From Minisyncoccota bacterium (GTDB lineage: Bacteria > Patescibacteriota > Minisyncoccia > Phycocordibacterales > PALSA-1337): 28,548 nucleotides of DNA. The notes below the pieces were generated by a model. It saw nothing but the letters and a program-made list of their open reading frames with translations. It had not been told where the DNA came from and did not search any database. The position numbers were made by a program, and so were the translations under genes. The stretch covers positions 158,618 to 187,165 of the forward strand of contig JBAZRG010000002.1 in assembly GCA_041663145.1 (NCBI GenBank), in the 5' to 3' direction. Below are positions 12,322 through 27,653 of this stretch, one piece after another; the stretch's first letter is position 1, and each line of letters begins with the position of its first letter.

Positions 12322-12335
12322 TAGGGTTATTATAA

Positions 12336-14333: not shown

Positions 14334-14380
14334 TCTCTTAAGACTTTCAATTTCGAGAATGATCTGTGGACTTTGCGTGG

Positions 14381-14532
14381 CATTACCCCGACACAATATT
14401 CCCAGAACAATCCGAGTATGCGATTGAGCTTCGATAAATTACCCGTGTTTGGTGAAGCCTTGGAACCAAACACGGTTGTAATTTGAGAAGCGATTACGCA
14501 GGATTGTGGCGGGAATATTGTGTCGGGGGTAA
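14381..14532 (+). repeat. Long rod-like hairpin element C, about 150 nt
   Basis: Outer arms ATTACCCCGACACAATATTCCC-AGAA-CAATCC (14381-14412) and GGATTGTGGCGGGAATATTGTGTCGGGGGTAAT (14500-14532) are near-perfect reverse complements. The interior holds a nested stem AAATTAC-CCGTGTTTGGT / ACCAAACACGG-TTGTAATTT. It lies between the ABC transporter stop and the PIF1 helicase start. Confidence 0.55.
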
Positions 14533-14595
14533 TATACACCATTGAATCTTTTGATAGATTAAATAAGACTGAAATTTTCTGTTATACTCAGTTCC

Positions 14596-16383
14596 ATGAC
14601 TCAGACTGAAGCACTCAATATCCTGAAGACTGGCAAAAATGTTTTCGTGACCGGACCGGCCGGCAGCGGTAAGACTTACGTGGTCAATGAATATGTGAAT
14701 TATCTCCGTAAACACGATGTGCCGATCGGAATCACGGCTTCGACGGGTATCGCCGCTACACACCTCGGGGGCATGACAGTTCATTCTTGGTCCGGAATGG
14801 GTATAAAAAATAGTTTGGATGAGCATGAGCTGGCGGAATTAGCAGAAAGATCCAGTACCGCTAAGCGAATCAGGGAGGCGCAAGTTTTGATCATAGATGA
14901 AGTTTCGATGCTTCATCATTTTCGACTCGATACTTTGAATTCTATTTTGAAACACATTCGTAAAAATAGTCATCCTTTCGGTGGCATGCAGATCGTACTT
15001 TGTGGGGATTTTTTCCAATTACCTCCAGTATCTCGATATGGTGAACCAGACACGCACTTTATATATCGTTCGGAAGCCTGGCGGGAAGGTGGTTTTGCGG
15101 TCTGTTATCTTTCCGAAAATTATAGACAGACCGATGACGGCATACTTTCCGTATTGAATGAGATAAGGAGCGGTGAGGTGTCTGACGAAGCTCGCGAAAC
15201 TCTGAAGGGACGATATAGGAATATTTTGAATGCTGATCTCGCTCTAAATGATTTGCCTCCGACTAGACTTTTTACTCACAATGTCGATGTCGATGCAGTC
15301 AACGATGTTGAATTGTCGAAAGTCGATTCTCCGGAATTTTCGTATGAGATGCGCTCCAACGGTCGCAAAAATATAGTTGAACATTTGAGGAAATCTTGCC
15401 TTGCTCCAGAAGTTTTGCGTCTTCGCAAAGGCGCCAGAGTCATGTGCGTCAAGAATAATTTTGAACAAGGATATGTGAACGGGACATTGGGAACCGTTAT
15501 CTCGTGCGGTCCAGGTGTGGATCCGATAATCCAGACCGTTCCGAGTGTGAGCAACCCAAATGGTAGGTCAATCACGGTAGAGTCGGCAGTTTGGCAGATC
15601 GAAGATAACGGTCGGATTTTGGCTGAGATCGAACAATATCCGTTGCGCTTGGCATGGGCTATTACCGTTCATAAGAGTCAGGGTATGAGTTTGGATGCCA
15701 TAGAAGTCGATCTGTCGAAGGCTTTTGAGCCGGGAATGGGATATGTGGCATTGTCACGAGTCCGTACCCTCAGAGGACTTTCACTACTCGGTATGAATGA
15801 GAACGCTTTTCGAGTTCATCCCGAGGTCTTGGAATACGATGTGCATCTGCGTGATTTGTCGATGAAAGCCGAACGTATTTTGCAGAGTACGGATGAAAGA
15901 GATGTTGTCGGGGCGCATAATGAATTTCTGGCTAAAGTTGCACCACTTCATACCATAGATAAAACAGGTCGACTAGTGAGAGGACGAAAGAAAGAAGGAG
16001 AGAAATCCGTAAAATTGTCGACATATGATAAGACGGCACTGCTCGTAAAAGCGGAAAAATCCCTGGGTGAAATGGCTAAAGAAAGAGGAGTCACCACCGA
16101 GACTATCATAGCTCAGATCGAACGATTGATCTCCGGCGGTAAGGGGGTCAGAGAACCAATCAGTATGAATGAGATAATGTATTTGAAAAAAGAGATGTCA
16201 TCTTTACATTTTTCGAAAATCGAAAAAGCGCTTGAAGAAGTTTCCGTTAGGAATAATAGCGATGAGCTTCCACTATTAAGCGCGATAAAGACGATTGTCG
16301 GGCCGAATGTGTCATGGAAGGAGATCAGGCTGGCGAGAGTAATTCTTGGTTATGTTAAGGTGGGTTCAATGTCTGTGTTATAA
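14596..16383 (+). CDS. PIF1/RecD-family SF1B DNA helicase with a C-terminal extension
   Basis: Walker A GPAGSGKTY, motif II LIIDEVSM and the PIF1 signature LCGDFFQLPPV, plus a SF1 C-terminal domain (ITVHKSQGMSLD). About 150 extra C-terminal residues. Confidence 0.8.
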   Translation: MTQTEALNILKTGKNVFVTGPAGSGKTYVVNEYVNYLRKHDVPIGITASTGIAATHLGGMTVHSWSGMGIKNSLDEHELAELAERSSTAKRIREAQVLIIDEVSMLHHFRLDTLNSILKHIRKNSHPFGGMQIVLCGDFFQLPPVSRYGEPDTHFIYRSEAWREGGFAVCYLSENYRQTDDGILSVLNEIRSGEVSDEARETLKGRYRNILNADLALNDLPPTRLFTHNVDVDAVNDVELSKVDSPEFSYEMRSNGRKNIVEHLRKSCLAPEVLRLRKGARVMCVKNNFEQGYVNGTLGTVISCGPGVDPIIQTVPSVSNPNGRSITVESAVWQIEDNGRILAEIEQYPLRLAWAITVHKSQGMSLDAIEVDLSKAFEPGMGYVALSRVRTLRGLSLLGMNENAFRVHPEVLEYDVHLRDLSMKAERILQSTDERDVVGAHNEFLAKVAPLHTIDKTGRLVRGRKKEGEKSVKLSTYDKTALLVKAEKSLGEMAKERGVTTETIIAQIERLISGGKGVREPISMNEIMYLKKEMSSLHFSKIEKALEEVSVRNNSDELPLLSAIKTIVGPNVSWKEIRLARVILGYVKVGSMSVL

Positions 16384-16390
16384 TAACTCC

Positions 16391-17074
16391 ATGTCAACAG
16401 TCCTAATAACCGGCGTATCAAAAGGTATCGGCAAGGAATTGGCTCGAATATTCGAAGAGTCTGGCTATGTCGTACTAGGCACAGAGAGAGATCCTGTATC
16501 TGAAGAACAAAAAGAATCGCTCAAATTATTTACCCTAGATCTATCTGATCCGAAATCAATAGAGTCATTTGCTGATTCTATAAGTAATACAGGTGTGAAG
16601 ATCGATATCCTCATCAACAATGCGGGTACTTTGGTCGACGATGAATTGACACAGGTGCATATCGATAAGCTTCGACAAACCTTGGAAGTCAACCTGATCG
16701 GCACAATAGATCTGACCGAAAGAATGTTACCTATTATGAATAACAATGGTCACATCATCAATATTTCTTCAACAGCCGGCTCACTTACTCACACTACCGA
16801 AGGAACTGATTCTCATTACCCAAATCATTATCCAGCTTATAAAATATCAAAATGCGCATTGAATATGTACACTCGCACATTGGCTATGCGTTTTCGTCTA
16901 GAAAAATCAGATATTCGTGTATCTTCTGTGCACCCAGGTTGGGTAAAAACTGATATTGGTGGTGAAGAAGCGGACATCGAGCCAAAAGAATCAGCCAGAC
17001 ATATTTATGAGTTTGCCATCACGCGCCCAGAATCAGGAAAATTCTGGTTCGAAGGCAAAGAACTTGAGTGGTAA
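16391..17074 (+). CDS. Short-chain dehydrogenase/reductase (SDR)
   Basis: Start moved to the ATG at 16391 (MSTVLITGVSKGIGKEL = TGxxxGIG Rossmann motif). The track's upstream start would overlap the PIF1 gene. NNAG and the catalytic YxxxK (YKISK) are present. Confidence 0.8.
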   Translation: MSTVLITGVSKGIGKELARIFEESGYVVLGTERDPVSEEQKESLKLFTLDLSDPKSIESFADSISNTGVKIDILINNAGTLVDDELTQVHIDKLRQTLEVNLIGTIDLTERMLPIMNNNGHIINISSTAGSLTHTTEGTDSHYPNHYPAYKISKCALNMYTRTLAMRFRLEKSDIRVSSVHPGWVKTDIGGEEADIEPKESARHIYEFAITRPESGKFWFEGKELEW

Positions 17075-17103
17075 TATTTACTACTCAATATTTAGATTTG
17101 ATC

Positions 17104-17433
17104 TTAGACCGCCGAGACTACAGGCTCAGCTCTATGAGTAAACTTTCGAGATCCAGAAACTACTAGGATCGAACCGATAATGTGGAAGATGTAGAACAAA
17201 GCAGACATTGGTAATCCGTATATACTAACAGCAACTCCTTGGCTTGATTCGAAAGAAACAAAGGCCGCCATCAATATGGCAATAGCGATTATAAATACAC
17301 CACCTGCGACCAATCTCAATGGTTTTTTCAATGAATCCATGAATATTCCCGATGAGATGTAAAAGTAAGCTGCAGAGATCACTCCAATAATAACGGAAGC
17401 AAAAATAAAGATTAGTTCAAATTGGTTTGTCAT
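17104..17433 (-). CDS. Hypothetical membrane protein, 3-4 TM, 109 aa
   Basis: Strongly hydrophobic ORF with a good coding look and no recognisable family motif. Confidence 0.5.
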   Translation of the reverse strand: MTNQFELIFIFASVIIGVISAAYFYISSGIFMDSLKKPLRLVAGGVFIIAIAILMAAFVSFESSQGVAVSIYGLPMSALFYIFHIIGSILVVSGSRKFTHRAEPVVSAV

Positions 17434-17539
17434 AATGGGTATAGTATAACTCCGACTTTATTATCACGCATCCCCAGATTTGCAAGACGCAACCGCACAC
17501 ATCATTGAGATACACTCCGAATGGATGTATAATAAACTC

Positions 17540-17644
17540 ATGGCAAAGAGAATCAACATGCGCTTGAAGACTTCTCGTTCGAGAAAAACCGCCAAGAGGC
17601 GATCTGTTAAGAACGCAAGACTTCATAAGACGAAGAAGAAATAA
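17540..17644 (+). CDS. Possible 34-aa highly basic peptide
   Basis: MAKRINMRLKTSRSRKTAKRRSVKNARLHKTKKK is Lys/Arg-rich like a small ribosomal or nucleic-acid-binding peptide. It lies antisense to a low-quality Cys-rich track ORF (17417-17626). I found no confident homology. Confidence 0.2.
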   Translation: MAKRINMRLKTSRSRKTAKRRSVKNARLHKTKKK

Positions 17645-17899
17645 TAAGTCGATTTTCGAATTATTATCAGAAATGCAATCAGTAAACTCTGATTGTTCTC
17701 TTATGCTTTCTTTTTTATTTCTATACCAAGCTCGATCAACTGACTAGGTTCGACAAGTGATATTTTTGGTGGTTTTAGTTTCTCTTAAATATATTAAACG
17801 CAGAGATTCCACTTATCATCTGTTTTCAATCTCCACTGACTAGGGTTGTTACGAGGTAGTCTATTAATAAGCTAACATAGGTGTATATATTTTAATCAA

Positions 17900-18095
17900 T
17901 ATGTGTTATATTTCTGGCATACCTATGATCCGGCAGACACCGGTGAGGTGAAGAAAGAAAGCCATCCTTTGATTGGTTAGTAGAATCTTCCGGTAGTGCT
18001 CCGATATGCAGAAATGAAGAAAAAAACAGGGTGGCACCGCGACAAAATCGCCCCTGCGGATTTATTAAAATTAATGAATTCGGAGGGGTGTTTTT
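17900..18095 (+). promoter_or_regulatory. T-box riboswitch leader with intrinsic terminator upstream of the AspRS paralog
   Basis: Canonical T-box sequence AACAGGGTGGCACCGCG (18026-18041; consensus AGGGTGGNACCGCG, with the bulge UGGC matching tRNA 3' GCCA and discriminator G as in tRNA-Asp/Asn). It is immediately followed by the terminator CCCCTGCGGA(18051-18060)...TTCGGAGGGG(18079-18088)+TGTTTTT. The ATG is at 18139. Stem I and the specifier were not resolved by eye, so the 5' boundary is approximate. Confidence 0.7.
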
Positions 18096-18138
18096 ATTTA
18101 CAGCAAGTAGGTGGGACATTTCTTCGAACACAAGTACC

Positions 18139-19467
18139 ATGCAAAGAACATATATAAGAGATCTAAAAGAGTTTATAGGTAAAGAAATTAGCATTTCAGG
18201 ATATGTCGATGTACGTCGCAATCAAGGTAAGATGGTGTTTTTCGAATTTCGCGATCGGACGGGCAAGATACAGGGGGTGGTACTTCCTAATAATTCAGAA
18301 GCTCTTGAATCTTCCAAAGAAATACGTTCGGAATGGGTTGTAGAAATAATTGGCATCGTAAATAAACGTCCGCAAAAGAACATTCAAGCCGGAAAGATGA
18401 ACGGGGATATCGAACTTGAGATTAAACATATTAATGTCCTTGGAATAGCCAAAGAACTTCCGTTTGAAAAAGATTCTGAGATTAACATCGATACGTATCT
18501 CGATTACCTTCCACTCACTCTTCGAAGTCAAACACACACGACCGTCTTCAAAGTTCAGGCAGTTATTGCTAAGGCCTTCAGAGACTTCTTTACAAAAGAG
18601 GGTTTTACGGAATTTCAAGCACCGAAATTAATTGGTGATGATGCCGAAGGTGGGGCGAACTCTTTTGATGTTACATATTTCAAACATATCGCACATTTGG
18701 CTCAAAGTCCCCAGTTATATAAACAGATCATGGTCGGCGTATTTGAACGTGTTTTTTCTGTCGGAAACGTATATCGTGCGGAGAAGCATAGTACAACGCG
18801 TCATCTCAATGAATATACCAGTCTAGACATGGAAATGGGCTATATTAAAGATCATTATGATGTCATGAATTCTGAAAATCAATTTTTGCAATATCTTGAA
18901 AATGTTCTTCGTGCCTCTTGTGTTGATGATTTTGCCTTGCTCGGTGCCACTATACCAACGGTCCCGAAAGAAATTCCAAAATTGACCTTACGCGAAGCTC
19001 AAACACTTATCACAACAGATACCGGTAAAGATTGTACAAATGATCCGGATCTTGAGCCTGAACATGAAAGATGGCTTTGTAAGTATGCCGAGAAGAATTT
19101 TAATTCCGACTTTATTTTCGTCACTAATTTTCCGACAGCTAAGCGACCGTTCTATACTTATAGAGATGAAAAAGATCCAACATATACTAAAGGTTTTGAC
19201 CTGCTCTTTCGTGGTGTAGAAATCACTACTGGTGCGCAACGCATCCATAACTACGACGACCTTGTTAGTTCCATGAAAGAGAAGAAGCTTGATCCTGAAA
19301 AGTTCAAATATTATCTTCAAGCTTTCAAATATGGCATGCCTCCACACGGAGGTCTAGGACTTGGGTTGGAGCGCATCACGGCAAAGCTTCTTGGTCTAGA
19401 AAATATCAAGGAAGCCACTCTTTTCCCGAGAGATATTAACAGGATCGATAACCTATTGTCAGAATAG
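18139..19467 (+). CDS. Class IIb aspartyl-tRNA synthetase paralog (archaeal/eukaryotic type), AT-rich copy
   Basis: Start moved to 18139 (MQRTYIRDL...) downstream of the T-box terminator. N-terminal OB anticodon-binding domain; flipping-loop motif LAQSPQLYKQ (AspRS-type QSPQ); motif 2 YRAEKHSTTRHLNEYTSLDME; motif 3 GGLGLGLERITAKLLGLENIKEATLFPRD. GC is far lower than the second copy at 23312. Confidence 0.8.
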   Translation: MQRTYIRDLKEFIGKEISISGYVDVRRNQGKMVFFEFRDRTGKIQGVVLPNNSEALESSKEIRSEWVVEIIGIVNKRPQKNIQAGKMNGDIELEIKHINVLGIAKELPFEKDSEINIDTYLDYLPLTLRSQTHTTVFKVQAVIAKAFRDFFTKEGFTEFQAPKLIGDDAEGGANSFDVTYFKHIAHLAQSPQLYKQIMVGVFERVFSVGNVYRAEKHSTTRHLNEYTSLDMEMGYIKDHYDVMNSENQFLQYLENVLRASCVDDFALLGATIPTVPKEIPKLTLREAQTLITTDTGKDCTNDPDLEPEHERWLCKYAEKNFNSDFIFVTNFPTAKRPFYTYRDEKDPTYTKGFDLLFRGVEITTGAQRIHNYDDLVSSMKEKKLDPEKFKYYLQAFKYGMPPHGGLGLGLERITAKLLGLENIKEATLFPRDINRIDNLLSE

Positions 19468-19503
19468 AGATTAACTATTAAGATAAGCGCATCAAAAATC
19501 ATC

Positions 19504-20241
19504 ATGTATAAACAAGGAATAGAGGTAAAAAGAGAAACAAATTTTGGGATTATTCTTGAGAAGTCCTCATGGTTTTCAATTGTCGAATCTCTTTTCCCGA
19601 AAAGTGAGCGAATCTATTATCCAAATGATCAGGATGAGGTGTTACATATAATCGTGGATGATATTGACATCGCTTTTATCTCTGGTCAAGGTTCAAGCAT
19701 GGTCGCGTGCATGACTGAAAGATTAAGAGTATATGGATCAAAGGCAATAATTAGAATTGGGACATGTGGAGCATTATCGCAAGAAATAAAACTATGGTGT
19801 CCAATTATTACGACAGCATGTTTTAGTAGCGAAGGTACCTCAAAGCATTACTTACCGTGCGGCTATCCTATTATATCTGACTTTAATCTGAATACCCTCC
19901 TCATTAAAAAATTAATTAAAGGAGGTGTTGATTACCAACAAGGTATTACATTAACAACAGATGGTAGATGGCGAGAAGATCCGGTATTGCTCAAACAATT
20001 ATGTCAGCTGGGGGTTATTTCTATTGAAATGGAAACGGCGGCAATTTTATCAGTTTGTCAGTTTAGAAAATTACCTGCAGCTGCAATAAATATTCCAACT
20101 GATTTACCAGCAGACGAGGAAAGTGAAGAAGATTTTAAGGGCATACCAAATCGAGAAACTTATGAATCAGATTTGAGAAAATGTTTAATGAAAATCATTC
20201 CTTTTGCAGTGGAGACCTTAAAAGATTTATATCATAAATAA
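19504..20241 (+). CDS. PNP_UDP_1 family protein, MTA/SAH-nucleosidase-like (Mtn-like)
   Basis: IIRIGTCGALSQ corresponds to the substrate-binding GSAGG loop (NTGSAGG) of MtnN. LTTDGRW carries the catalytic Asp. ISIEMETAAILSVCQ matches the VEMEATAIAHVC motif. It sits 36 nt after the AspRS paralog stop. Confidence 0.6.
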   Translation: MYKQGIEVKRETNFGIILEKSSWFSIVESLFPKSERIYYPNDQDEVLHIIVDDIDIAFISGQGSSMVACMTERLRVYGSKAIIRIGTCGALSQEIKLWCPIITTACFSSEGTSKHYLPCGYPIISDFNLNTLLIKKLIKGGVDYQQGITLTTDGRWREDPVLLKQLCQLGVISIEMETAAILSVCQFRKLPAAAINIPTDLPADEESEEDFKGIPNRETYESDLRKCLMKIIPFAVETLKDLYHK

Positions 20242-20250
20242 ATCAAACAA

Positions 20251-20877
20251 ATGACAATCTGGGCAAACATGATCTATGGTGAAGATGTTAAATTTACTAC
20301 ACCGTTACCAGATAAAGGTTTCCTGACATCCTTTTCAAAAGACATAAGTATTCTTGATGTTGGTTGTGGATATGGAAGAGTTCTAAGTTATTTACAGAGT
20401 TTGGGTTTTACAAATTTGACAGGTTTCGATATATCCTCAAATTACGTATTAGAGGCCAAGAAAAATTGCCAAGATGCAAACCTCTTTGTTTCTGATTTCA
20501 AAAGTTTAAATCTGAATAAGAAATATGATCTAATCTTACTGATGGGGGTTATTGAATATATTCTCACTGATAAAGATCAGGACGCTTTTTTTAGGAAGCT
20601 TTCTGGAGAGCTCTCTACCAATGGATCTGTTTTGCTGGAAACTTTTATTATTGATTTCAAACCAAATTGGAAACAATATATTTTAGGATTTATAAAAACA
20701 TTGCATTTTGGACGGTTTAGAAACAGTAAAGGTTTTGAGTGTCACCATCAGTCGATAAATGGTTTAAGGGTGATATTACAAAAATACTTCATTATTAATT
20801 CAGAGACAGAAAAATGTTATGTAACATGGACCAATAATTATTGCCGTGGGTATAATATTAATTTGAAGAAAAAATAA
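20251..20877 (+). CDS. Small class I SAM-dependent methyltransferase-fold protein
   Basis: Motif I ILDVGCGYGRVLSYL and an acidic post-I residue (GFDIS). 208 aa. The gap to the upstream gene is 9 nt. Confidence 0.7.
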   Translation: MTIWANMIYGEDVKFTTPLPDKGFLTSFSKDISILDVGCGYGRVLSYLQSLGFTNLTGFDISSNYVLEAKKNCQDANLFVSDFKSLNLNKKYDLILLMGVIEYILTDKDQDAFFRKLSGELSTNGSVLLETFIIDFKPNWKQYILGFIKTLHFGRFRNSKGFECHHQSINGLRVILQKYFIINSETEKCYVTWTNNYCRGYNINLKKK

Positions 20878-20881
20878 TTAT

Positions 20882-22960
20882 ATGGAATCAGATTTAGATA
20901 ATTTAATTAAAACTGTTTCAATACAGGAGGAGCGGAAAAGCAGGTGTATAAACCTTATTGCATCAGAAAACATAATCAGTGATAGGGTTAGCCAATTGCA
21001 GGCATCGTTGCTTTCTAATCGGTATATTCTCAATGATTTTCCAAACAATAAAGAACTTTTTGAAATTAAGGAAAAACTGAAATATCATCTTTGCAAAATG
21101 TTTAATGTTAAATATGTCAACATATCGCCGCTTTCGGGTATGAGTTGTATGAGTTTGATTATCAGCAGTCTAACAAACAAAAATGATAACATCTACACGT
21201 TGAAACCTCTTGATGGAGGCCACGCGTCGACCGAAAAAATATGTCACATGTATCATTTGAATATTAACTATTTACCATTTAGTAATATCGATTATCGATT
21301 CAATTTAGAAGAAATAAAGAAAATATTCGAGATAAGAAAACCACGTCTAATATATTTGGATAATACGATCATCAGTTTTTATTCTCCAGTTGATGAGTTG
21401 AAGAAACTTGCAGAAAAATATTATGCTCCGATTGTATATGATGGTTCGCATGTCTTGGGTTTAATCGCTGGTAAGTCGTTTCCGAATCCAATAGAAAACG
21501 GAGCAGATATTTTGAGTGGCAGTACTCATAAAACATTCTTTGGTTCCCAAAAAGGAATCATCTTGACTAATAACCAGGATCTAATAAATAAAATTAATTC
21601 TATATCAAATGATTATATATCTAGTCTTCACACAGGAAGTCTTTTGGCTTTGTATATGAGTGTATTAGAAATGGAAAAATTTGGGAATGAATATGCCATG
21701 CAAGTTGTAAAAAATGCCAAGGCATTGGGGAAAAATCTGGCTATAAATGGGGTTGCAATTCCCACTCTTGAAAAGGGTGTGACTGAAACGCATCAAGTTT
21801 GGATAGACACAGGTAAAGTTGACCCACAAAGAGCATTTGAAATGCTTGCTGAATGTAATATCAATACAAACCCTATTCGGATACCTGCGATACAAAAAGT
21901 TGGACTAAGATTGGGAACTGCGGAAGTGACGAGATTGGGAATGAAAGAAGATGAAATGAAACAGATAGCGAAATTTATTTCTGAAGTATTGATTGGTTCT
22001 AAAGAAAAGAACCTCGTTAAGGAAGATGTAATCAAGTTTAGTGGTAAATATCAAAAAACACTTTTCACTCTAGACAATTATAATAGCAATGTTGATCTTC
22101 CTCTTATGATAAAAGAAAACGAAGTTATTTTAGACCAAAGATTTGAAACACATGATGTAATAAATAATACAACAGTTGTGGGATATGGGGATATTGTGGG
22201 CAAATATGTCAAAGACTTTTTTAGTATAATTCCTGGTTTTCAGGGACTTATTATTCGGGGTGGTGTTGGTAGGGGTACTGCTGATGACTTGTCAGATATT
22301 GATTTCACATGTGTATTTGATTGTGATGATATTGAGAAAATCAAAAAACAATATGGACTTAAAACCGGCATGTATAAATATAATGGAATTATGTTTTCAG
22401 GCCGATATATATCTCTGAATTCGTTTAGAGACAGCTTATGGTCACCTAAAATGAAACATGCTTATTCATATGTGAAGTTGATACATTGTGCCAAAACAAT
22501 TAGTGACATAATAAAAAAGAAAACAAAGATTTCGATTTCAGAACAAAAAAGGAGGTTAGTAGAGAATGTTATTGAGTTGGGAGAAATCTGTAAGGTTTTT
22601 AATGAGTATCACGGTTTTAAAATGTTTTCAGAAATCTATAAACAATATTCAAGAAAAGAATTTTTGGTGGCAAATTTAGAAATTGATAGAGCAGTAAGAT
22701 ATATAAAAAATATAATTTTCGATCTTAACAAAATTAACTATCCTGAGGAAAAAAGTTATTATACTAAGTTCTTTTCCGGTTTACCTAAGCAACCTGACGG
22801 ATTTGATCATCAGATTAAAACCATATTACAAATGCCTCGGGATGATAGAAGTTTTGGAAAACGACTAACACTTCTTGTAATATTAGCCAGAGAGGTTTTG
22901 GGTTATTGTGAAAAATATGTATCTTTACCAAAGGACATATATAAGTTTTACCTGAACTAG
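20882..22960 (+). CDS. Fusion protein: N-terminal SHMT-like fold-type I PLP enzyme plus C-terminal Pol-beta-superfamily nucleotidyltransferase with a helical domain
   Basis: N-terminal half: LIASENIIS (SHMT LIASENFTS), LDGGHAST (SHMT GGHLTHG), YDGSHVLGL (PLP-Asp region DMAHxxGL) and SGSTHKTFFGSQKGIIL (SHMT TTTTHKTLRGPRGG, the PLP lysine). C-terminal half: RGGVGRGTADDLSDIDFTCVF fits the minimal NTase hG[GS]x(9-13)Dh[DE]h motif, followed by a helical substrate-binding-like domain as in ANT/LinB-type nucleotidyltransferases. The gap to the MTase gene is 4 nt. Confidence 0.6.
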   Translation: MESDLDNLIKTVSIQEERKSRCINLIASENIISDRVSQLQASLLSNRYILNDFPNNKELFEIKEKLKYHLCKMFNVKYVNISPLSGMSCMSLIISSLTNKNDNIYTLKPLDGGHASTEKICHMYHLNINYLPFSNIDYRFNLEEIKKIFEIRKPRLIYLDNTIISFYSPVDELKKLAEKYYAPIVYDGSHVLGLIAGKSFPNPIENGADILSGSTHKTFFGSQKGIILTNNQDLINKINSISNDYISSLHTGSLLALYMSVLEMEKFGNEYAMQVVKNAKALGKNLAINGVAIPTLEKGVTETHQVWIDTGKVDPQRAFEMLAECNINTNPIRIPAIQKVGLRLGTAEVTRLGMKEDEMKQIAKFISEVLIGSKEKNLVKEDVIKFSGKYQKTLFTLDNYNSNVDLPLMIKENEVILDQRFETHDVINNTTVVGYGDIVGKYVKDFFSIIPGFQGLIIRGGVGRGTADDLSDIDFTCVFDCDDIEKIKKQYGLKTGMYKYNGIMFSGRYISLNSFRDSLWSPKMKHAYSYVKLIHCAKTISDIIKKKTKISISEQKRRLVENVIELGEICKVFNEYHGFKMFSEIYKQYSRKEFLVANLEIDRAVRYIKNIIFDLNKINYPEEKSYYTKFFSGLPKQPDGFDHQIKTILQMPRDDRSFGKRLTLLVILAREVLGYCEKYVSLPKDIYKFYLN

Positions 22961-23197
22961 TTGAGACTGATGGGATATTCACGGCTTTATCGGTAGCATT
23001 ATTATAAAGAAAGCCATTCGTGGCAACTAGGATATTTAATTACAAGATGACTGATCTATTTCAGTTTATTCAAGATATGGATATCAGAAAAGATAGCTAT
23101 TTTTTCATTGTATGTGGTGAAGTGTCTCCGAGCTATCGAACTCAAGCGGCTTCAAAAGCTGACTAACCTCACATACATATTGCACTCATTAAAAAGC

Positions 23198-23226
23198 TTG
23201 ACAATATTAATATTGTTTGTTACTTT
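23198..23226 (+). promoter_or_regulatory. Sigma70-type promoter for aspS copy 2
   Basis: Perfect -35 TTGACA (23198-23203), 17-nt spacer, then TGt-TACTTT (extended -10 with a weak hexamer). A strong SD GAAAGGAGGTG lies upstream of the ATG at 23312. Confidence 0.4.
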
Positions 23227-23311
23227 ATCATAAGAACTATAAATGGAGTTCATCTTTTTATAGTAGTTATTATGAACAAAATGACCACAACAAATTGAAA
23301 GGAGGTGGCAA

Positions 23312-24616
23312 ATGAATCGCACATTGACTCAATACATACCGGCTTTAATCGGCCAACAAGTAAAAGTTGCGGGCTTTTCACAAGTTATTCGCGACCAAAA
23401 GAAAATGCAGTTTGTGATCCTTAGAGATCAGACGGGGCAGGTTCAGATCTGTCATGAAAAAGGTGGTGACGAGGATGAGTTGAAAAAGACCATCTCTTCA
23501 CTCACCGCTGAATCAGCGGTCACTGTTATCGGTCGCGTGGTCGAAAACAAGGGCGTGAAGCTTGGTGGAGTCGAGATTGTGGCGGAGTCGATTGATGTCT
23601 CAAGCATCGCCATTGTGCCATTACCGATTACGCCGGAATCATCGCTCGATCTGCAGATGGACTGGCGGATGCTTAGCCTGAGACAGCCAGAAAATCTCCT
23701 GATCTTCCAGGTCCAGACGACCATGGAGCAGGCGATGAGGGAGTTCTGGGCTGACAACGGATTCATCGAGGTACATTCGCCGAAGCTTATGGCAACGGCG
23801 AGCGAATCGGGTGCCGAGCTGTTTCAGCTTGAGTACTTCGGACAGAAAGCGACTCTGGCTCAATCGCCACAGTTTTATAAGCAAATGGCGATGGCGGCAG
23901 GGTTTGATCGGATCTTCGAGATCGCGCCTGTATTCCGTGCTAATCCGTCGTTCACATCACGACATGACACCGAGTTTACCTCGGTTGACATGGAGATATC
24001 GTGGGTTGATTCCCATGAAGATCTGATGCATATCGAGGAAACTTGGTTGCATCATGTGGTCAAACGAGTGTCGGAGAAACACGGTAAAGCCATCAAGGAC
24101 ACCTTCGGAGCTGATGTGGTGATTCCTCAGCTTCCATTTCCGAGGGTTACCTTGGCAAATGCGCGAGAGATTCTCGCAAAGCAGGGTCATACCATGGAGC
24201 AAATCACCGACCTCGATCCGCCCGGCGAAAGAGGTTTGGCGGAACACATCAAGAAGGAATTTGGTCACGAGTTTGTTTTCGTGATCGACTACCCGATTGA
24301 TGTGCGGCCGTTCTACCACATGCGTCATGTCGGCAATCCCGGCATCACCAAGAGCTTCGACCTTTTATGGAAGGGGCTTGAAGTGACGACGGGTGCACAG
24401 CGTGAACATCGTGTCGAGACGCTCGAACAGCAGGCACGGGAAAAGGGCTTGGCTCTTGCTCCTCTTGCACACTATATCAACTTCTTTCGTTACGGCTGTC
24501 CACCGCACGGAGGATTTGGCGTGGGACTTACGAGGCTTCTCATGGTTCTCCTTGATCGTAAGAACGTCAGGGAAGTGACCTACCTCTATCGCGGGCCTAA
24601 TCGCCTGACACCGTAA
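23312..24616 (+). CDS. aspS: Aspartyl-tRNA synthetase, archaeal/eukaryotic type (class IIb)
   Basis: OB-fold N-terminus; QSPQFYKQ flipping loop; motif 2 FRANPSFTSRHDTEFTSVDMEI; motif 3 GGFGVGLTRLLMVLLDRKNVREVTYLYRGPNRLTP (compare archaeal AspRS ...FPRDRRRLTP). GC is typical of the surrounding genome. Confidence 0.85.
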   Translation: MNRTLTQYIPALIGQQVKVAGFSQVIRDQKKMQFVILRDQTGQVQICHEKGGDEDELKKTISSLTAESAVTVIGRVVENKGVKLGGVEIVAESIDVSSIAIVPLPITPESSLDLQMDWRMLSLRQPENLLIFQVQTTMEQAMREFWADNGFIEVHSPKLMATASESGAELFQLEYFGQKATLAQSPQFYKQMAMAAGFDRIFEIAPVFRANPSFTSRHDTEFTSVDMEISWVDSHEDLMHIEETWLHHVVKRVSEKHGKAIKDTFGADVVIPQLPFPRVTLANAREILAKQGHTMEQITDLDPPGERGLAEHIKKEFGHEFVFVIDYPIDVRPFYHMRHVGNPGITKSFDLLWKGLEVTTGAQREHRVETLEQQAREKGLALAPLAHYINFFRYGCPPHGGFGVGLTRLLMVLLDRKNVREVTYLYRGPNRLTP

Positions 24617-24639
24617 TTGTTCTTTGGTTAGTTAACACA

Positions 24640-24670
24640 CAGCTAGGATGAAAGTCCTGGCTGTTTTTTT
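24640..24670 (+). terminator. Rho-independent terminator after aspS
   Basis: Stem CAGCTAGG(24640-24647)/CCTGGCTG(24656-24663), 8 bp including one G-U pair, loop ATGAAAGT, then TTTTTTT. Confidence 0.5.
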
Positions 24671-24749
24671 AAAAGGCAAGGCAAAAATTCGTAAGTTCCA
24701 GAATTAATTGCAACACCAGTACGTATGATTTGTGTTAATATGTTGAAAC

Positions 24750-25775
24750 ATGACAAATATTCGATCAAAACAAATCATTGAAAAAGCACCTCTTATCCTA
24801 GAAGAAATTAAGAAAGCTAAATCGATCTTATTACATTGTCACCCTATGCCAGATCCGGATTCGGTTGGTTCGGCATTGGCGATGAAGTTCGTATTGGAAG
24901 GAATGGGTAAGAAAGTTACAGTTATCGAGGGGGATTCGGCTTTACCGGAAGGGTTTAAGCATTTTCCTGGCGCAGGGGATATTATAAAAAAGAAATTTCT
25001 AGAAACCGATCTATCTTCTTTTGATCTATTCATATCTTTAGATAGTGCTCAAATACAAATGATCACTAGACGAGGTGAAGTGATTTTTCCGGAAGGTCTC
25101 AAAGTCATAGCGATCGATCATCACACAACAAACGGTATGTATGGATCTATCAATCTCGTGGATTCCTCGTATCCCGCCAACTGCCAACTGTTATTCGATC
25201 TATTCGAAGAATGGGGAATAAATATGACACCGGATATATCTGCCAATCTGTTTATTGGTATATATGCTGATACGGGAGGATTTCGATATCCAGGAACAAA
25301 TGCAAGAACTTATTTCATCGCTGGCAAACTAGTCGAGATGATACCGGATGTTTCAGCCCTGATAGGTGGCATGATGAATTCAAATTCTCCAGAATTTATC
25401 GCTCTTATGGCTGAAGGATTACGATCTATCGAAGTCTATTTTGATCGTTTCGCGATATCTTCGATACCTTTATCATTTCTGAATCAAAAAAAGATACCAA
25501 TATCCGAAGTCCGAGCCAGTGAAATTGCCTCCTATATGTCTTCTGTGGCAAATTGGGATATAGTTGCATCTGCTGTAGAGATTGAGGTTAATAAAGTAAA
25601 ATTTAGCTTTCGAAGCAAAGACGGCGAAAAATATGACGTGGCAAAATTGGCAGCCACGATGGGTGGCGGCGGACATAAGGCTGCATCCGGTCTCATATTG
25701 TCTCTACCACTTAACGATGCCAAAGAATTGGTGGTTTCAAAAATCAAGGAGCTGTATAATGTGACAAACGTTTGA
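24750..25775 (+). CDS. nrnA: DHH-family phosphoesterase, NrnA-like bifunctional oligoribonuclease/pAp phosphatase
   Basis: DHH motifs LHCHPMPDPDSVGS, AIDHHTTN and DTGGF; DHHA1 motif GGGGHKAASG near the C-terminus. Confidence 0.8.
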   Translation: MTNIRSKQIIEKAPLILEEIKKAKSILLHCHPMPDPDSVGSALAMKFVLEGMGKKVTVIEGDSALPEGFKHFPGAGDIIKKKFLETDLSSFDLFISLDSAQIQMITRRGEVIFPEGLKVIAIDHHTTNGMYGSINLVDSSYPANCQLLFDLFEEWGINMTPDISANLFIGIYADTGGFRYPGTNARTYFIAGKLVEMIPDVSALIGGMMNSNSPEFIALMAEGLRSIEVYFDRFAISSIPLSFLNQKKIPISEVRASEIASYMSSVANWDIVASAVEIEVNKVKFSFRSKDGEKYDVAKLAATMGGGGHKAASGLILSLPLNDAKELVVSKIKELYNVTNV

Positions 25776-25869
25776 GTTTTGTTCTGATATGATAGGTTAT
25801 ATTCAACATTCAAATTGAATTTAGCCTTATAATTTAGCTGTATCTTATTAAAAAAATTATCCTTCAATA

Positions 25870-26562
25870 ATGTCCAACACAAATAAAACAATCATTGGAA
25901 TTGTCGTTGTGGTCGTAGTCTTGGCTGGGATCCAGTGGTACCTGAATACGAGAGATAAAGATGTTTTTAACAGTTATGGAAATGAGTTTAGTTTTGCTTT
26001 GCCTACTCCTATTCCAACTTCAGTCGCAACTTCTATCTCAACATCGACAGCAATAGAGGGTTCTATAAACAATAATCAAACAAAAAATTTCATGAATACA
26101 GTAACAATTGAAACAAATAAAGGCACTATAGTTTTTGAAACTTACGATGCCGACGCGCCAAATACCAGTAAAAACTTCGTGACACTGGCAAATAAAGGCT
26201 ATTATAACGGTGTCATTTTCCATCGTGTAATAAAAGGATTTATGATTCAAGGTGGCGATCCGACTGGAACAGGTAGAGGAGGACCAGGATATCAATTTGC
26301 TGATGAGCTAAATCCAAATACAGACTCGGCCAAAGCAGGATATGTCAGGGGAACAGTCGCCATGGCAAATTCTGGACCAAATACAAATGGCAGTCAGTTC
26401 TTTATCATGCACAAAGATTATCCATTACCACATGACTATACTATTTTTGGTAAAGTGATCTCTGGTATGGATGTCGTAGACAAAATAGCCGAAAGTGCAA
26501 CAAGTGAGGACAGACCGACTACTGATATTGTTATGACTAAGGTCACTGCTGTTCCTAAATAG
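25870..26562 (+). CDS. Cyclophilin-type peptidyl-prolyl cis-trans isomerase with an N-terminal membrane anchor
   Basis: N-terminal TM helix, low-complexity linker, then a cyclophilin core (GYYNGVIFHRVIKGFMIQGGDPTGTGRGGPGYQFADE...MANSGPNTNGSQFFI). Confidence 0.9.
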   Translation: MSNTNKTIIGIVVVVVVLAGIQWYLNTRDKDVFNSYGNEFSFALPTPIPTSVATSISTSTAIEGSINNNQTKNFMNTVTIETNKGTIVFETYDADAPNTSKNFVTLANKGYYNGVIFHRVIKGFMIQGGDPTGTGRGGPGYQFADELNPNTDSAKAGYVRGTVAMANSGPNTNGSQFFIMHKDYPLPHDYTIFGKVISGMDVVDKIAESATSEDRPTTDIVMTKVTAVPK

Positions 26563-26610
26563 AGCGAATGTCGTCGCGAAATAGTGAAAGTTAATTAGTG
26601 AAATAAAATA

Positions 26611-27366
26611 ATGTCCGAATACTATAATTCACGTCGAAGCCGTAATCTATTTGATCCTACGAGCACGGAACCTTTCAGGGTCAGTCGGTCGAAGATCGAT
26701 CTCTATTTGAATTGTCCGCTTTGTTTCTATCTCGATTGCAAGTTGGGCGTGGGCAGACCGCCCGGATTTCCATTTGCACTGAACTCGGCCGTAGACGCTC
26801 TTCTCAAAAAAGAATTTGACATTCATCGAGCAAAAAAGAGGCCTCATCCACTCATGCATGCTTACGGATTGAAAGATATTATTCCATTCAGTCATGAGGA
26901 TCTAGATATATGGAGGAGCAATTTTAAGGGTATAAGATACATCCATTCCCCGACAAATCTTTTGGTCACTGGAGCTATCGATGACGTTTGGACTGATTCG
27001 GATGGGGAACTGATAATTGTTGACTACAAATCAACTAGTAAAGAAGAAAAAGTTTCGCTTGATAAAGAGTGGCAGATCGGATACAAGCGTCAAATGGAGA
27101 TATATCAATGGCTTTTCCGACAAAATGGATTCAAGGTTTCAAAAACAGGATATTTTGTCTATTGCAATGGTAAGACAGACAGGGAAGCATTCGACGCCAA
27201 ACTCGATTTTGATATAGATCTTATCCCTTATGTTGGCGATGATTCATGGATCGAAGGCGCTCTCAAGGAATTGAAAGAGTGTCTGTTACTACCAAAACCA
27301 CCTAAACCTGCCGAGACTTGTGATTACTGTTCTTACAGAAAAGCTTCGAGGGATGTTCAGAGATGA
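26611..27366 (+). CDS. PD-(D/E)XK nuclease with cysteine cluster (Cas4-like/RecB-family exonuclease fold)
   Basis: N-terminal CPLCFYLDC plus C-terminal CDYCSY form a 4-Cys Fe-S-type arrangement as in Cas4/AddB. The nuclease core is GAIDDV ... LIIVDYKST ... YKRQMEIYQ (D...ExK, QxxxY). No CRISPR array or other cas genes are nearby. Confidence 0.6.
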   Translation: MSEYYNSRRSRNLFDPTSTEPFRVSRSKIDLYLNCPLCFYLDCKLGVGRPPGFPFALNSAVDALLKKEFDIHRAKKRPHPLMHAYGLKDIIPFSHEDLDIWRSNFKGIRYIHSPTNLLVTGAIDDVWTDSDGELIIVDYKSTSKEEKVSLDKEWQIGYKRQMEIYQWLFRQNGFKVSKTGYFVYCNGKTDREAFDAKLDFDIDLIPYVGDDSWIEGALKELKECLLLPKPPKPAETCDYCSYRKASRDVQR

Positions 27367-27368
27367 TT

Positions 27369-27537
27369 CGTAACCCCCACAACACCCTCATTTGTTTTCC
27401 TCGAACTCTGCTCACAATATACCAACATTTTCACAAAGGATGCGCTACAAGGATTCGCGCATCCTTTGGAAAATGTGTTGGTATATTATTTCGCAGATTA
27501 TTCTCGGAATACAAATGAGGGTGTTGTGGGGGTTACG
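27369..27537 (+). repeat. Long rod-like hairpin element D, about 169 nt
   Basis: Terminal arms CGTAACCCCCACAACACCCTCATTTGT / ACAAATGAGGGTGTTGTGGGGGTTACG are perfect reverse complements (27 bp). There is an inner near-perfect hairpin AATATACCAACA..AAAGGATGCGC-loop-GCGCATCCTTT..TGTTGGTATATT. It begins 3 nt after the stop of the Cas4-like gene. Confidence 0.55.
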
Positions 27538-27653
27538 AAGACTAGTAATGACATCATGGAATGCATAGTGTAAGATATTTCTGTATCCGAGTACTTTAAA
27601 AAGTTTTTCACTCACCCACAAAGAGAGTATTCGATATAGAAAGATGTACCAAT

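What the first reader, a model, noticed from the sequence alone, without database searches (positions are those of the whole stretch)
14381..27537. Two more long rod-like hairpins (C and D): a 150-170-nt 3'-of-gene palindrome class, apparently four per 28 kb
Element C (14381-14532) and element D (27369-27537) are unrelated in primary sequence to A/B and to each other. Both fold into near-perfect extended hairpins of similar length, with C/A-rich outer arms: C has TACCCCGACACAATATTCCC, D has TAACCCCCACAACACCCTCA, and A's inner arm is CACACAACACACA. C also reuses the A/B core layout (AAATT stem followed by a CCGT...ACGG stem). All four elements are on the same strand and lie just downstream of a + strand stop codon, and D starts 3 nt after it. 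Four such structures in 28.5 kb is a high density. I take this as a lineage-specific family of hairpin elements: functional analogues of REP/BOX/Correia elements, intrinsic terminators with unusually long stems, or small mobile palindromes.
Basis: seen in the sequence. Interest (0 to 1): 0.65.

Follow-up and report, generated by a model that had tools for sequence, protein, structure and literature searches.

The report
Long palindromic insertion elements in Paceibacteria
Two 150-170-base stretches that fold into very long hairpins behind genes of a tiny-celled (Patescibacteria) bacterium belong, with two neighbours, to one family of inserted palindromic repeats that is present or absent at the same sites in related genomes: a new family of a familiar kind of repeat, unusual because its folding is kept almost perfect while its sequence changes fast.

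Summary
Both hairpins are real: C at 14381-14532 (z -10) and D at 27367-27539 (z -17), as RNA or as DNA, and also present in an independent Logan assembly. C is a diverged, inverted copy of the A/B family: a model built without C scores it at 60 bits on the minus strand and 27 on the plus strand. D has a colinear homologue in a Taylorbacteria genome (L008), with 49 shared pairs, 24 of them changed on both sides and none broken. D, C, L008 and an A/B-type copy in L031 share the apical loop CAAGG(A/C)TTC.

Orthologous sites in relatives are mostly empty. The spacer after the PD-(D/E)XK gene holds a long hairpin in 6 of 81 genomes, from at least four families. B's site is empty in 3 relatives, and relatives' spacers around the ABC gene are too short for B or C. 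L008's copy lies between divergent genes, and another family sits in-frame in dnaE.

None of A-D has a U-tract, and nothing matches Rfam.

Best reading: lineage-restricted, MITE/RPE-like palindromic insertion elements whose fold and apical loop are read by an unknown protein. A host-functional RNA is not excluded.

The parts
14381..14532 (-). Element C: 152-nt hairpin between the ABC transporter stop (14333) and the Pif1 helicase promoter and start (14596). By homology its core is on the minus strand, inverted relative to A and B.
   Evidence: fold, z about -10. (alignment A2). (model from A, B and L031 only: 60.3 bits on minus, 26.7 on plus). (blastn to the L031 element, inverted, E 1e-7).
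14419..14499 (-). Core module of C, homologous to the A/B/L031 core. On the minus strand it reads CTCAAATTACAACCGT, a 7-bp covarying stem, loop TCCAAGGCTTC, ACGGGTAATTT, plus the TCAATCGCAT bulge. The apical loop is at 14454-14464.
14383..14404 (+). 5' arm of C's outer stem (TTACCCCGACACAATATTCCC). It pairs with 14509-14530. It has a C-rich, terminator-like base but is not followed by a T-tract.
27367..27539 (+). Element D: 173-nt hairpin starting directly after the stop codon of the PD-(D/E)XK (Cas4-like) nuclease gene (26611-27366) and ending 114 nt before the next gene (27654).
   Evidence: z about -17. (colinear homologue in L008, 24 of 49 pairs changed on both sides, none broken).
27367..27395 (+). 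5' arm of D's 29-bp perfect outer stem (TTCGTAACCCCCACAACACCCTCATTTG). It pairs with 27511-27539. The base TTCGTAACCCC...GGGTTACGAA is shared with a short 64-nt hairpin in relative L011 (8667-8730).
27415..27488 (+). Inner 74-nt hairpin module of D. It consists of CAATATACCAACA paired with TGTTGGTATATT, then CACAAAG, a 7-bp stem, loop TACAAGGATTC (27446-27456), the returning stem and CTTTGG. A poorly paired zone (27396-27414 and 27489-27510) separates it from the outer stem.
   Evidence: (I7).
5478..5627 (+). Element A: same family as C. It has the base clamp AGCTCGG/CCGAGCT, a fast-evolving stem, and a core whose 87-nt query differs from B at one position (86/87).
12337..12486 (+). Element B (palindrome extends to 12319-12504, overlapping the DEAD-box helicase stop at 12321). 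Same family and orientation as A. B and the inverted C flank the ABC transporter gene.

Best explanation
C and D are copies of a lineage-restricted superfamily of about 150-170-nt palindromic, non-coding insertion elements of Paceibacteria (Patescibacteria). A and B belong to it as well. There are two subfamilies. One holds A, B, the inverted C and the L031 copy (AAATTRC-CCGT core). The other holds D and the L008 copy (CACAAAG...CTTTGG core). The apical loop CAAGG(A/C)UUC links C, D, L008 and L031; A and B carry the variant loop GAUGGAACU.

Shown: they are insertions. They are gained or lost at given sites between related genomes, occur in either orientation, and occupy different kinds of spacer.

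Inferred: what is propagated is a folded single strand (ssDNA, or an RNA copy). An unknown hairpin-reading protein, by analogy with the HUH/Y1 transposases of REP and IS200/IS605 elements, recognises its apical loop and short conserved base. Lineages of the element therefore stay foldable while the stem sequence drifts, with each change mirrored on the other arm.

Inferred: copies survive only in the few tolerated places of a compact genome, namely the gap between a stop codon and the next promoter. For another family in relatives, a permissive linker of dnaE is also tolerated. This makes them look like a '3'-of-gene' class.

Inferred: when co-transcribed with the upstream gene they add a 60-70-bp duplex to the mRNA 3' end. 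This may affect processing or stability, but they are not canonical terminators.
For: Structure: z -10 to -17 as RNA and as DNA.

Family relations:
- C against A, B and L031, inverted.
- D against L008 is colinear, with 49 shared pairs, 24 changed on both sides and none broken.
- The exact 9-mer CAAGGATTC sits in the apical loop of D, L031 and L008, and CAAGGCTTC in C. These are the only four CAAGG(A/C)TTC occurrences flanked by a stem in 1.23 Mb.

Insertion polymorphism:
- After the PD-(D/E)XK gene, 6 of 81 genomes have a long hairpin, from at least four sequence families. About 75 have none, most with no hairpin at all.
- The closest relatives have 68-92-nt spacers there against 287 nt here.
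- B's site is empty in L013, L017 and L035 despite a conserved helicase C-terminus.
- The ABC gene of relatives has 18-94-nt spacers, with no room for B or C.

Position and orientation are not fixed. C is inverted, and the L008 copy lies between divergent genes.

Same-architecture hairpins lie in-frame in dnaE of L013, L018 (opposite orientation) and L030, and at another dnaE site in L023. They are absent in L006.

The distribution is patchy and burst-like: 4 in 28.5 kb here, 3 in 20.7 kb in L013, 2 in 11 kb in L062, and none in most relatives.

None of A-D has a U-tract. Nothing matches Rfam.

Known precedents: Correia, ERIC and RPE elements (review PMC10969869).
Against: - No target-site duplication is consistent across copies. 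Only A has flanking TGAATAGAG/TGAACAGAG.
- No transposase or recombinase is encoded in the window, and none with matching ends was seen in 1.2 Mb of relatives.
- D is single-copy in everything I could read, with one homologue in 1.23 Mb.
- Core patterns found nothing real in the genome, metagenome or viral collections.
- The genome-wide copy number is unknown because the source contig could not be retrieved.
- Near-perfect pairing with many double changes is the classic signature of a selected structure, and ordinary MITEs decay instead.
- Same-genome copies have 99%-identical cores but only about 60%-identical stems. Simple copy-and-paste does not predict this.
Confidence: 0.55

Rival explanations
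1. Host-functional structured RNAs. Each element is a cis-acting or small RNA whose rod and apical GGA loop bind a protein, for example CsrA or another loop-binding regulator, or an RNase III-type enzyme. It would control the stability, processing or translation of neighbouring transcripts. The family would spread by duplication and be kept by host selection.
For: - Covariation is extensive and no pairs are broken: 24 of 49 pairs for D against L008, and 21 of 49 pairs in the A/B/L031/C alignment.
- The core and apical loop are conserved between genomes whose intergenic DNA is otherwise unalignable.
- D's loop UACAAGGAU matches the CsrA SELEX core as I remember it (from memory, not tested).
- Both strands of TCCAAGGA-type loops present a GGA.
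- csrA is reported as highly expressed in ultra-small groundwater prokaryotes (PMC9938205).
- The elements sit where they would be co-transcribed with the upstream gene.
Against: - They are absent from most relatives at the same sites.
- Orientation relative to neighbours is inconsistent: C is antisense, and L008 lies in a 5'-5' spacer.
- Different families occupy the same site in different genomes.
- The neighbour genes share no function.
- No own promoter or terminator stands out above shuffles.
- No Rfam family matches.
- CsrA was not found in the 1.23 Mb sampled, which is uninformative.
Confidence: 0.2
2. Folded single-strand DNA recombination sites, working like integron attC sites. The structure is conserved and the sequence is free, apart from a short base and loop. 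They would be used by a site-specific recombinase encoded elsewhere in the genome.
For: - The evolutionary pattern is the same as for attC: pairing is kept and the sequence is replaced.
- The size range is similar.
- They are placed right after stop codons.
- D and the L008 copy have AAC...GTT at the base of the stem.
- The hairpin is stable as ssDNA.
Against: - The R''/R' consensus RYYYAAC/GTTRRRY is not met in D (TCGTAAC/GTTACGA) and is absent in A, B and C.
- No integrase is encoded in the window.
- The flanking genes are housekeeping genes with their own promoters, syntenic with relatives that lack the hairpins.
- The apical part is conserved here, whereas in attC it is the variable part.
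Confidence: 0.07
3. Unusually long intrinsic terminators or 3'-end protective hairpins of the upstream genes. They would have grown from ordinary terminator hairpins.
For: - A-D all lie 0-66 nt after a + strand stop codon and upstream of the next promoter.
- The C-rich 5' arm and G-rich 3' arm bases of C and D (ACCCC...GGGGT) resemble canonical terminators of this genome: the purL terminator at 948-975 and L004 2517-2558.
Against: - None of A-D is followed by a T-tract, while real terminators with T-tracts exist at 948-975 (-), 17064-17088 and 24639-24664.
- Most relatives have no hairpin at all at D's site.
- L008's copy lies between divergent genes.
- Hairpins of the same architecture are transcribed and translated through inside dnaE.
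Confidence: 0.06
4. Programmable hairpins. The fast-changing stem segment would be an acquired, spacer-like sequence, as in a guide for an RNA-guided system or the TIGR-Tas stem-loop units.
For: A conserved scaffold (base clamp and apical core) flanks a 13-25-bp segment that differs between copies of one genome. TIGR stem-loop arrays with variable palindromic stems occur in Patescibacteria (PMC12045711).
Against: - The variable segments of A and B are still about 60% identical when aligned with a gap, so they are diverged, not replaced.
- They are fully base-paired, hence not available as guides.
- There is no exact match in IMG/VR, phages or plasmids.
- The elements are solitary, not tandem.
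- There are no variable loop spacers, no box C/D pattern, and no Tas or Cas gene in the window.
Confidence: 0.03

Closest known systems
Correia (NEMIS) and ERIC elements (bacterial MITEs)
   Same: They are 100-200-nt interspersed imperfect palindromes in intergenic DNA that fold into long hairpins when transcribed. They show insertion polymorphism between strains, and copies at gene 3' ends alter mRNA processing (RNase III for Correia, RNase E for ERIC; PMC10969869).
   Different: In MITEs the terminal inverted repeats are the conserved part and the interior varies. TA or other target duplications are usual, and copies decay. Here the apical core and loop are conserved, the stems change fast but stay paired, and no consistent duplication is seen. 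There is no sequence similarity.
Rickettsia palindromic elements (RPEs)
   Same: They are about 150-bp palindromic repeats in a reduced genome of a host-dependent bacterium and come in several families. They are tolerated in-frame inside essential genes (PMC10969869), as are the dnaE hairpins of L013, L018, L030 and L023.
   Different: C and D themselves are intergenic. RPE copies share a conserved encoded peptide. Here the encoded linker peptides differ and the fold is what is kept. The sequence and the phylum are unrelated.
REP/REPIN elements mobilised by RAYT (Y1 HUH transposases)
   Same: They are hairpin-forming extragenic repeats, homogeneous within a genome and different between species. 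They are thought to be moved as folded single strands by a single-copy domesticated transposase. This is the model I borrow for the mechanism.
   Different: REPs are 20-40 nt (REPINs about 100 nt) with a conserved GTAG head and conserved stems, and number in the hundreds. Here there is no GTAG, the rods are much longer, the stems are variable, and no RAYT gene is visible in the sequence I could read.
Integron attC sites
   Same: Structure is conserved and sequence is free. They function as folded ssDNA, are 57-141 nt long, and abut the stop codon of the preceding ORF.
   Different: The R/L box consensus is not met. There is no integrase and no cassette array. The apical region is conserved here but variable in attC.
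SPRITE (pneumococcal rho-independent-terminator-like element) and nested BOX/RUP clusters
   Same: These repeats mimic terminator hairpins, and elements insert into one another. C and D look layered: a terminator-like base, a decayed zone and an inner module. The same inner module occurs inside two different outer stems (A/B/L031 against C).
   Different: No U-tract is present here. Nesting is inferred from the anatomy only.
TIGR-Tas stem-loop arrays
   Same: They are units with variable palindromic stems and are found in Patescibacteria (PMC12045711).
   Different: They are tandem arrays next to a Tas gene, with box C/D motifs and 8-12-nt unpaired spacers. None of this is present here.

Membership tests
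MITE (miniature inverted-repeat transposable element) | Terminal inverted repeats conserved among copies | tested here: inconclusive
   Only a 7-11-bp base clamp is shared within a subfamily: AGCWCGGTRAA/TTCACCGWGCT in A, B and L031, and TTCGTAACCCC in D and L011. The rest of the arms differs between copies.
MITE (miniature inverted-repeat transposable element) | Target-site duplication flanking each copy | tested here: not met
   No direct repeat is consistent across 18 elements. Only A has TGAATAGAG/TGAACAGAG.
MITE (miniature inverted-repeat transposable element) | Multiple copies per genome and presence/absence at orthologous sites | tested here: met
   A, B and C lie within 9 kb. Empty sites in relatives are shown. 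D is single in the window, and the genome-wide count could not be tested.
MITE (miniature inverted-repeat transposable element) | A cognate autonomous IS with the same ends | not testable with these tools
   None in the window or in 1.2 Mb of relatives. The complete genome could not be retrieved.
REP/REPIN-RAYT | Short REP unit with a conserved GTAG/CTAC head, and a RAYT gene flanked by REPs | tested here: not met
   No GTAG head at the element bases. No Y1 transposase among the window proteins. The rest of the genome was not seen.
Intrinsic (rho-independent) terminator | G+C-rich stem-loop immediately followed by a U-tract | tested here: not met
   The scan finds canonical sites elsewhere (948-975 on the minus strand, 17064-17088, 24639-24664) but none at A-D. 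The tails are TGAACAG, CTTATTAC, TAATATAC and TTACGAAG.
Integron attC | R''/R' boxes RYYYAAC...GTTRRRY, extrahelical bases, and a neighbouring intI with a cassette array | tested here: not met
   D has TCGTAAC...GTTACGA. A, B and C lack AAC/GTT. There is no integrase, and the neighbours are housekeeping genes.
Any Rfam family (riboswitch, ribozyme, sRNA, 6S and others) | Covariance-model match at or near the gathering score | tested here: not met
   No hits at gathering score in the window or in L013, L015, L031 and L062. At E up to 10, the only hit reaching even E 1e-8 is a plant miRNA-precursor model (47.7 bits against a gathering score of 200), and the rest are weak matches to miRNA-precursor, snoRNA and sRNA models far below their gathering scores.
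TIGR-Tas array | Tandem units with box C/D motifs and unpaired dual spacers, next to a Tas (Nop-domain) gene | tested here: not met
   The elements are solitary and 2-13 kb apart. The core is identical between A and B, so there are no variable loop spacers. There is no Tas gene.
Rickettsia palindromic elements | In-frame insertion in ORFs with a conserved encoded peptide, in Rickettsia lineages | tested here: not met
   C and D are intergenic. The in-frame dnaE hairpins of relatives encode dissimilar peptides. This is an analogy only.
CsrA-binding RNA site | A(N)GGA in the loop of a short hairpin, and a CsrA protein in the genome | tested here: inconclusive
   Loops carry GGA: D UACAAGGAUUC, L031 and L008 UCCAAGGAUUC, A and B GAUGGAACU. 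C's minus-strand loop has GGC. CsrA was not found in the partial sample, and the complete genome is not available.

The most novel reading that the evidence does not exclude
These are not decaying selfish DNA but a new class of structure-constrained nucleic-acid element of Patescibacteria. It is a 60-70-bp rod with a conserved apical loop (YCAAGGAUUC) and a short conserved base, and its stems evolve fast under strict pairing. It would act either as a protein-binding RNA (for example a CsrA-type GGA-loop target placed at transcript ends) or as a folded-ssDNA site for an undescribed hairpin-specific recombinase or nuclease. The recurrent position next to the conserved Cas4-like PD-(D/E)XK nuclease gene would then be meaningful.
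Probability: 0.2. Interest if true: 0.75.

Novelty: new variant of a known kind. Interest (0 to 1): 0.5.

Why it matters
Interspersed palindromic repeats are well known in proteobacteria, firmicutes, cyanobacteria and Rickettsia. In my searches of the held paper library I found no description of them for Patescibacteria, whose genomes are small and tightly packed.

If confirmed, these elements matter in three ways:
- They show that mobile palindromes persist and burst in such genomes, even inside dnaE.
- They break short-read assemblies at predictable places: the Logan contigs end inside them.
- They offer an unusually clean case in which a long fold is preserved through many double substitutions while an apical loop stays fixed. 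That points to an unknown hairpin-reading protein, or to a strong arm-to-arm correction process.

They also change the 3' ends of housekeeping mRNAs in the lineages that carry them.

Tried and rejected
- **A/B core 23-mer, exact scans.** No hits in genome contigs or metagenome contigs. The pattern included the variable apical stem and was too strict.
- **Degenerate two-block core pattern in metagenomes.** 31 hits, all chance. Core 17-mer in IMG/VR: 3 chance hits. D-base pattern in IMG/VR: none.
- **Spacer idea.** Variable stems of A, B, C and D against IMG/VR: none. C and D against phages, and D against plasmids: none. No other copies of the stems in the window or the loci.
- **Source contig retrieval.** The source appears to be the 187-kb contig carrying the 100%-identical proteins P0108 and P0121.
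- **'Empty hairpin' search.** I looked for the outer stem without the core in relatives. Only chance 11-mers were found, so insertion into pre-existing terminator loops could not be demonstrated. Most relatives have no hairpin at D's site, which argues against it there.
- **G.U versus A.C strand bias, to choose the RNA strand.** Small and inconsistent between families.
- **Target-site duplication search.** Nothing consistent.
- **Covariance models R1 and R3 over 1.23 Mb.** No members beyond those already found.
- **Sliding RNAfold scan.** Timed out and was replaced by a self-blastn scan.
- **TIGR-Tas, attC, REPIN and terminator membership.** Each considered and rejected on defining features.
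- **Assembly artefact.** Rejected because of the independent Logan contigs and the homologues in other assemblies.

Full report
**Context.** The window is a chromosomal piece of a Patescibacteria genome of the Paceibacteria/'Taylorbacteria' group. It carries densely packed housekeeping genes, almost all on the + strand: purL, TyrRS, two class II aaRS genes, DEAD-box and Pif1 helicases, an ABC transporter and a Cas4-like PD-(D/E)XK nuclease. Homologues of its proteins are named Candidatus Paceibacterota or Taylorbacteria. Proteins 100% identical to those of the window are on record from a 187-kb JGI/NCBI contig that I could not retrieve. Short Logan contigs of SRR18595301 carry the same genes and break inside the palindromes.

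**The observation.** The inverted-repeat scan finds exactly four long hairpins:
- A at 5478-5627.
- B at 12319-12504 (element proper 12337-12486).
- C at 14381-14532.
- D at 27367-27539.

As RNA, C folds at -84.4 kcal/mol (z -10.0) and D at -108.3 (z -17.4). A and B give z -10.9 and -15.1. With DNA parameters, C and D give z -10.7 and -16.8. D begins directly after the TGA of the nuclease gene. C begins 47 nt after the ABC transporter stop. The hairpins are therefore real and far beyond chance. Independent contigs show they are not an assembly artefact.

**C is not unrelated to A and B.** Aligned in reverse complement, C matches the A/B core without gaps. The minus strand reads CTCAAATTACAACCGT, a 7-bp covarying stem, loop TCCAAGGCTTC, then ACGGGTAATTT, and it has the same asymmetric bulge (TCAATCGCAT against TCAAATCACAT). 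A covariance model built only from A, B and a homologue in relative L031 scores C at 60.3 bits (E 2e-13) on the minus strand and 26.7 bits on the plus strand. D, as a generic long hairpin, gets 43 and 37 bits. blastn independently aligns C to the L031 element in inverted orientation (E 1e-7). So A, B and C are one family, and C is flipped relative to A, B and the surrounding genes.

**D is not unique.**
- blastn and alignment find a colinear homologue on the minus strand of L008 (Taylorbacteria ELA053, about 2676-2846; fold z -7.6).
- Conserved blocks are the ACCCCC base, TCA..ATAT.CC, and CACAAAG, a 7-bp stem, T.CAAGGATTC, the returning stem and CTTTGG.
- RNAalifold finds 49 shared pairs. 24 are changed on both sides and none is broken.
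- D's base TTCGTAACCCC...GGGTTACGAA recurs in a short 64-nt hairpin of L011. TA(A)CCCCNCACA recurs in C and in L052.
- The exact 9-mer CAAGGATTC is the apical loop of D, of L008 and of the A/B-type element of L031. C has CAAGGCTTC.
- Of six hairpin-flanked hits to a slightly looser loop pattern in 1.23 Mb, these four are the only CAAGG(A/C)TTC occurrences, and each sits at the apex of a long element. The other two hits (AAAGGATTT) do not.
- The window's four elements thus form two subfamilies of one superfamily. A model of D's inner part finds no further member in the sample.

**Relatives.** A self-blastn and fold scan covered 82 relatives' loci, about 1.19 Mb, all centred on the PD-(D/E)XK gene. 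It finds about 14 hairpins of this size and quality, concentrated in a few genomes: three in 20.7 kb of L013 and two in 11 kb of L062. The window has four in 28.5 kb. They share an architecture: a short conserved base, a long stem that differs between copies, and a conserved apical core. L031 (8758-8909) carries the A/B core with a covarying apical stem and a base clamp with a compensatory T-A to A-U change.

Within one genome the cores are nearly identical. A and B match at 86 of 87 positions. The basal stems are only about 60% identical, and every change is mirrored on the other arm.

**Insertion polymorphism.**
- The spacer after the PD-(D/E)XK stop holds a long inverted-repeat structure in 6 of 81 evaluable genomes: D, L013, L015, L031, L062, and a 307-nt inverted-repeat structure in L033. 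At least four unrelated sequence families are involved. The other genomes mostly have no hairpin there at all.
- The two closest relatives have 68- and 92-nt spacers against 287 nt here.
- Downstream of the DEAD-box helicase, whose C-terminus ...GKKGKALTFV* is conserved, B is absent in L013, L017 and L035.
- The ABC transporter of relatives is flanked by 18-94-nt spacers, with no room for B or C.
- L008's D-type copy lies between divergently transcribed genes (a sigma factor and a small basic ORF followed by msrA). In L005 the corresponding spacer is only 220 nt.
- A G+C-rich family with the same architecture lies in-frame in a linker of dnaE (QFTVVK|...|YRIRFG) in L013, L018 (opposite orientation) and L030. 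It lies at a second dnaE site in L023 and is absent in L006.

These facts fit gain and loss of inserted elements that survive only where they are tolerated. In such compact genomes almost every tolerated place is just behind a stop codon and ahead of the next promoter. The conserved TATACT 7-8 nt before the Pif1 start lies downstream of C.

**What they are not.**
- Not an Rfam family. There are no hits at gathering score. At E up to 10, the only hit reaching even E 1e-8 is a plant miRNA-precursor model (47.7 bits against a gathering score of 200), and the rest are weak matches to miRNA-precursor, snoRNA and sRNA models.
- Not canonical terminators. None of A-D has a T-tract, whereas the window has standard ones at 948-975 (-), 17064-17088 and 24639-24664. 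The C-rich 5' arm of C and D does resemble those terminators and one in L004. A terminator-like origin of the outer stem, or mimicry as in SPRITE, is therefore possible.
- Not attC, REPIN or TIGR units, on their defining features (see the membership table).
- Not spacer-bearing. No stem segment matches IMG/VR, phages or plasmids, and the 'variable' segments of A and B are diverged homologues.
- No transposase or recombinase is encoded in the window.

**Anatomy and mechanism.** Both C and D are layered.
- D has a perfect 29-bp outer stem (27367-27395 with 27511-27539), a poorly paired zone, and a near-perfect 74-nt inner hairpin (27415-27488) ending in the loop TACAAGGATTC.
- C has a 22-bp outer stem, intermediate short helices, and the family core at 14419-14499.
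- The same core occurs inside two unrelated outer stems (A/B/L031 against C) and in both orientations. This suggests modular nesting, or in-situ inversion between the arms. That step is inferred.

My best explanation, with confidence about 0.55, has four steps:
1. Shown: these are lineage-restricted palindromic insertion elements of the MITE/RPE/REPIN kind.
2. Inferred: their propagation depends on a folded single strand. An unknown protein reads the apical loop and the base.
3. Inferred: this dependence, perhaps helped by arm-to-arm templated correction, keeps pairing perfect while the stems drift.
4. Inferred: they are co-transcribed at mRNA 3' ends, with secondary effects on processing.

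**Main rival.** The main rival, at about 0.2, is a host-functional structured RNA with a GGA apical loop. The covariation and the cross-genome conservation of the loop favour it. The patchy presence, the inconsistent orientation and the variable context argue against it. D's loop equals the CsrA SELEX core as I recall it, and csrA is reported as highly expressed in ultra-small groundwater prokaryotes, but I could not test this.

**Unexplained.**
- Same-genome copies have identical cores but diverged, mirrored stems.
- Hairpins of several families are enriched right after the Cas4-like nuclease gene and inside dnaE.
- The mobilising or binding protein is unknown.

**Verdict.** The interpretation as a lineage-specific hairpin-repeat family is right in outline but wrong in detail. 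The elements are a new variant of a known kind, and interest is moderate.

Noticed in passing
L013 14863-14982; L018 9087-9213; L030 9466-9582; L023 17557-17671: G+C-rich hairpins of 115-127 nt, with a variable perfect outer stem and a conserved two-arm core, lie in-frame inside the dnaE (Pol III alpha) ORF. Three are at the same linker (QFTVVK|...|YRIRFG), one of them in opposite orientation. One is at another site. They are absent in L006. This recalls Rickettsia RPEs or homing into an essential gene.
   Followed up: partly
window 27367-27539; L013 10765-10932; L015 2128-2291; L031 8758-8909; L062 1019-1158; L033 7583-7889: The spacer right after the conserved Cas4-like PD-(D/E)XK nuclease gene holds a long hairpin of a different family in 6 of 81 genomes. 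That is roughly six times more than expected for one spacer among about 17 per locus. The cause, whether hotspot, tolerance or a functional link to the nuclease, is unknown.
   Followed up: partly
window 12337-14530: B (+) and C (inverted) flank the ABC transporter gene like the arms of a composite unit. The gene order here is DEAD-ABC-Pif1, whereas L013 and L017 have Pif1-DEAD. The ABC protein is an ordinary Paceibacteria gene (65-69% identity to relatives), and B and C are too diverged to be a recent pair.
   Followed up: partly
window 5469-5477 and 5628-5636: Element A is flanked by a 9-nt near-direct repeat, TGAATAGAG / TGAACAGAG. This may be a target-site duplication. No other copy shows one.
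   Followed up: partly
window 27446-27456: D's apical loop UACAAGGAUUC contains UACAAGGAU, the core of the high-affinity CsrA site as I recall it (RUACARGGAUGU). Related loops carry CCAAGGAUUC, and the reverse strand also presents a GGA.
   Followed up: partly
window 14570-14598; L013 about 3245-3273: A conserved TATACT lies 7-8 nt before the ATG of the Pif1 helicase gene in the window and in L013. This suggests a leaderless or very short-leader mRNA.
   Followed up: no
window 1000-4000 and 20000-23000: There are strong G+C contrasts. purL on the minus strand is at 0.50-0.54, and the methyltransferase plus the 692-aa SHMT-like ORF are at 0.31-0.34, against about 0.40-0.45 elsewhere. These may be horizontally acquired segments. 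The SHMT-like ORF is about 300 aa longer than the Pfam domain.
   Followed up: no
L001 (end), L002 (both ends), L003 (start): Logan contigs of SRR18595301 end inside hairpins B, C and D. Long palindromes of this kind systematically fragment de Bruijn assemblies of these genomes.
   Followed up: yes
L062 1019-1158 and 7846-7981: A further family folds into a T shape: a long stem plus two short hairpin arms, like parvoviral ITRs. Two copies occur in 11 kb, with identical cores and different stems.
   Followed up: no
window 17075-18030 and 6182-6648: Two unusually long stretches have no convincing ORF (about 950 and 470 nt) in an otherwise compact window. No Rfam hit and no long hairpin was found in them.
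   Followed up: no
L013 about 6565-6660; L008 2920-3010: A small, very basic ORF (MAKRASVQA...KKRLAKKNAWK) is conserved in relatives next to different neighbours. It may be an unannotated small ribosomal-type protein.
   Followed up: no
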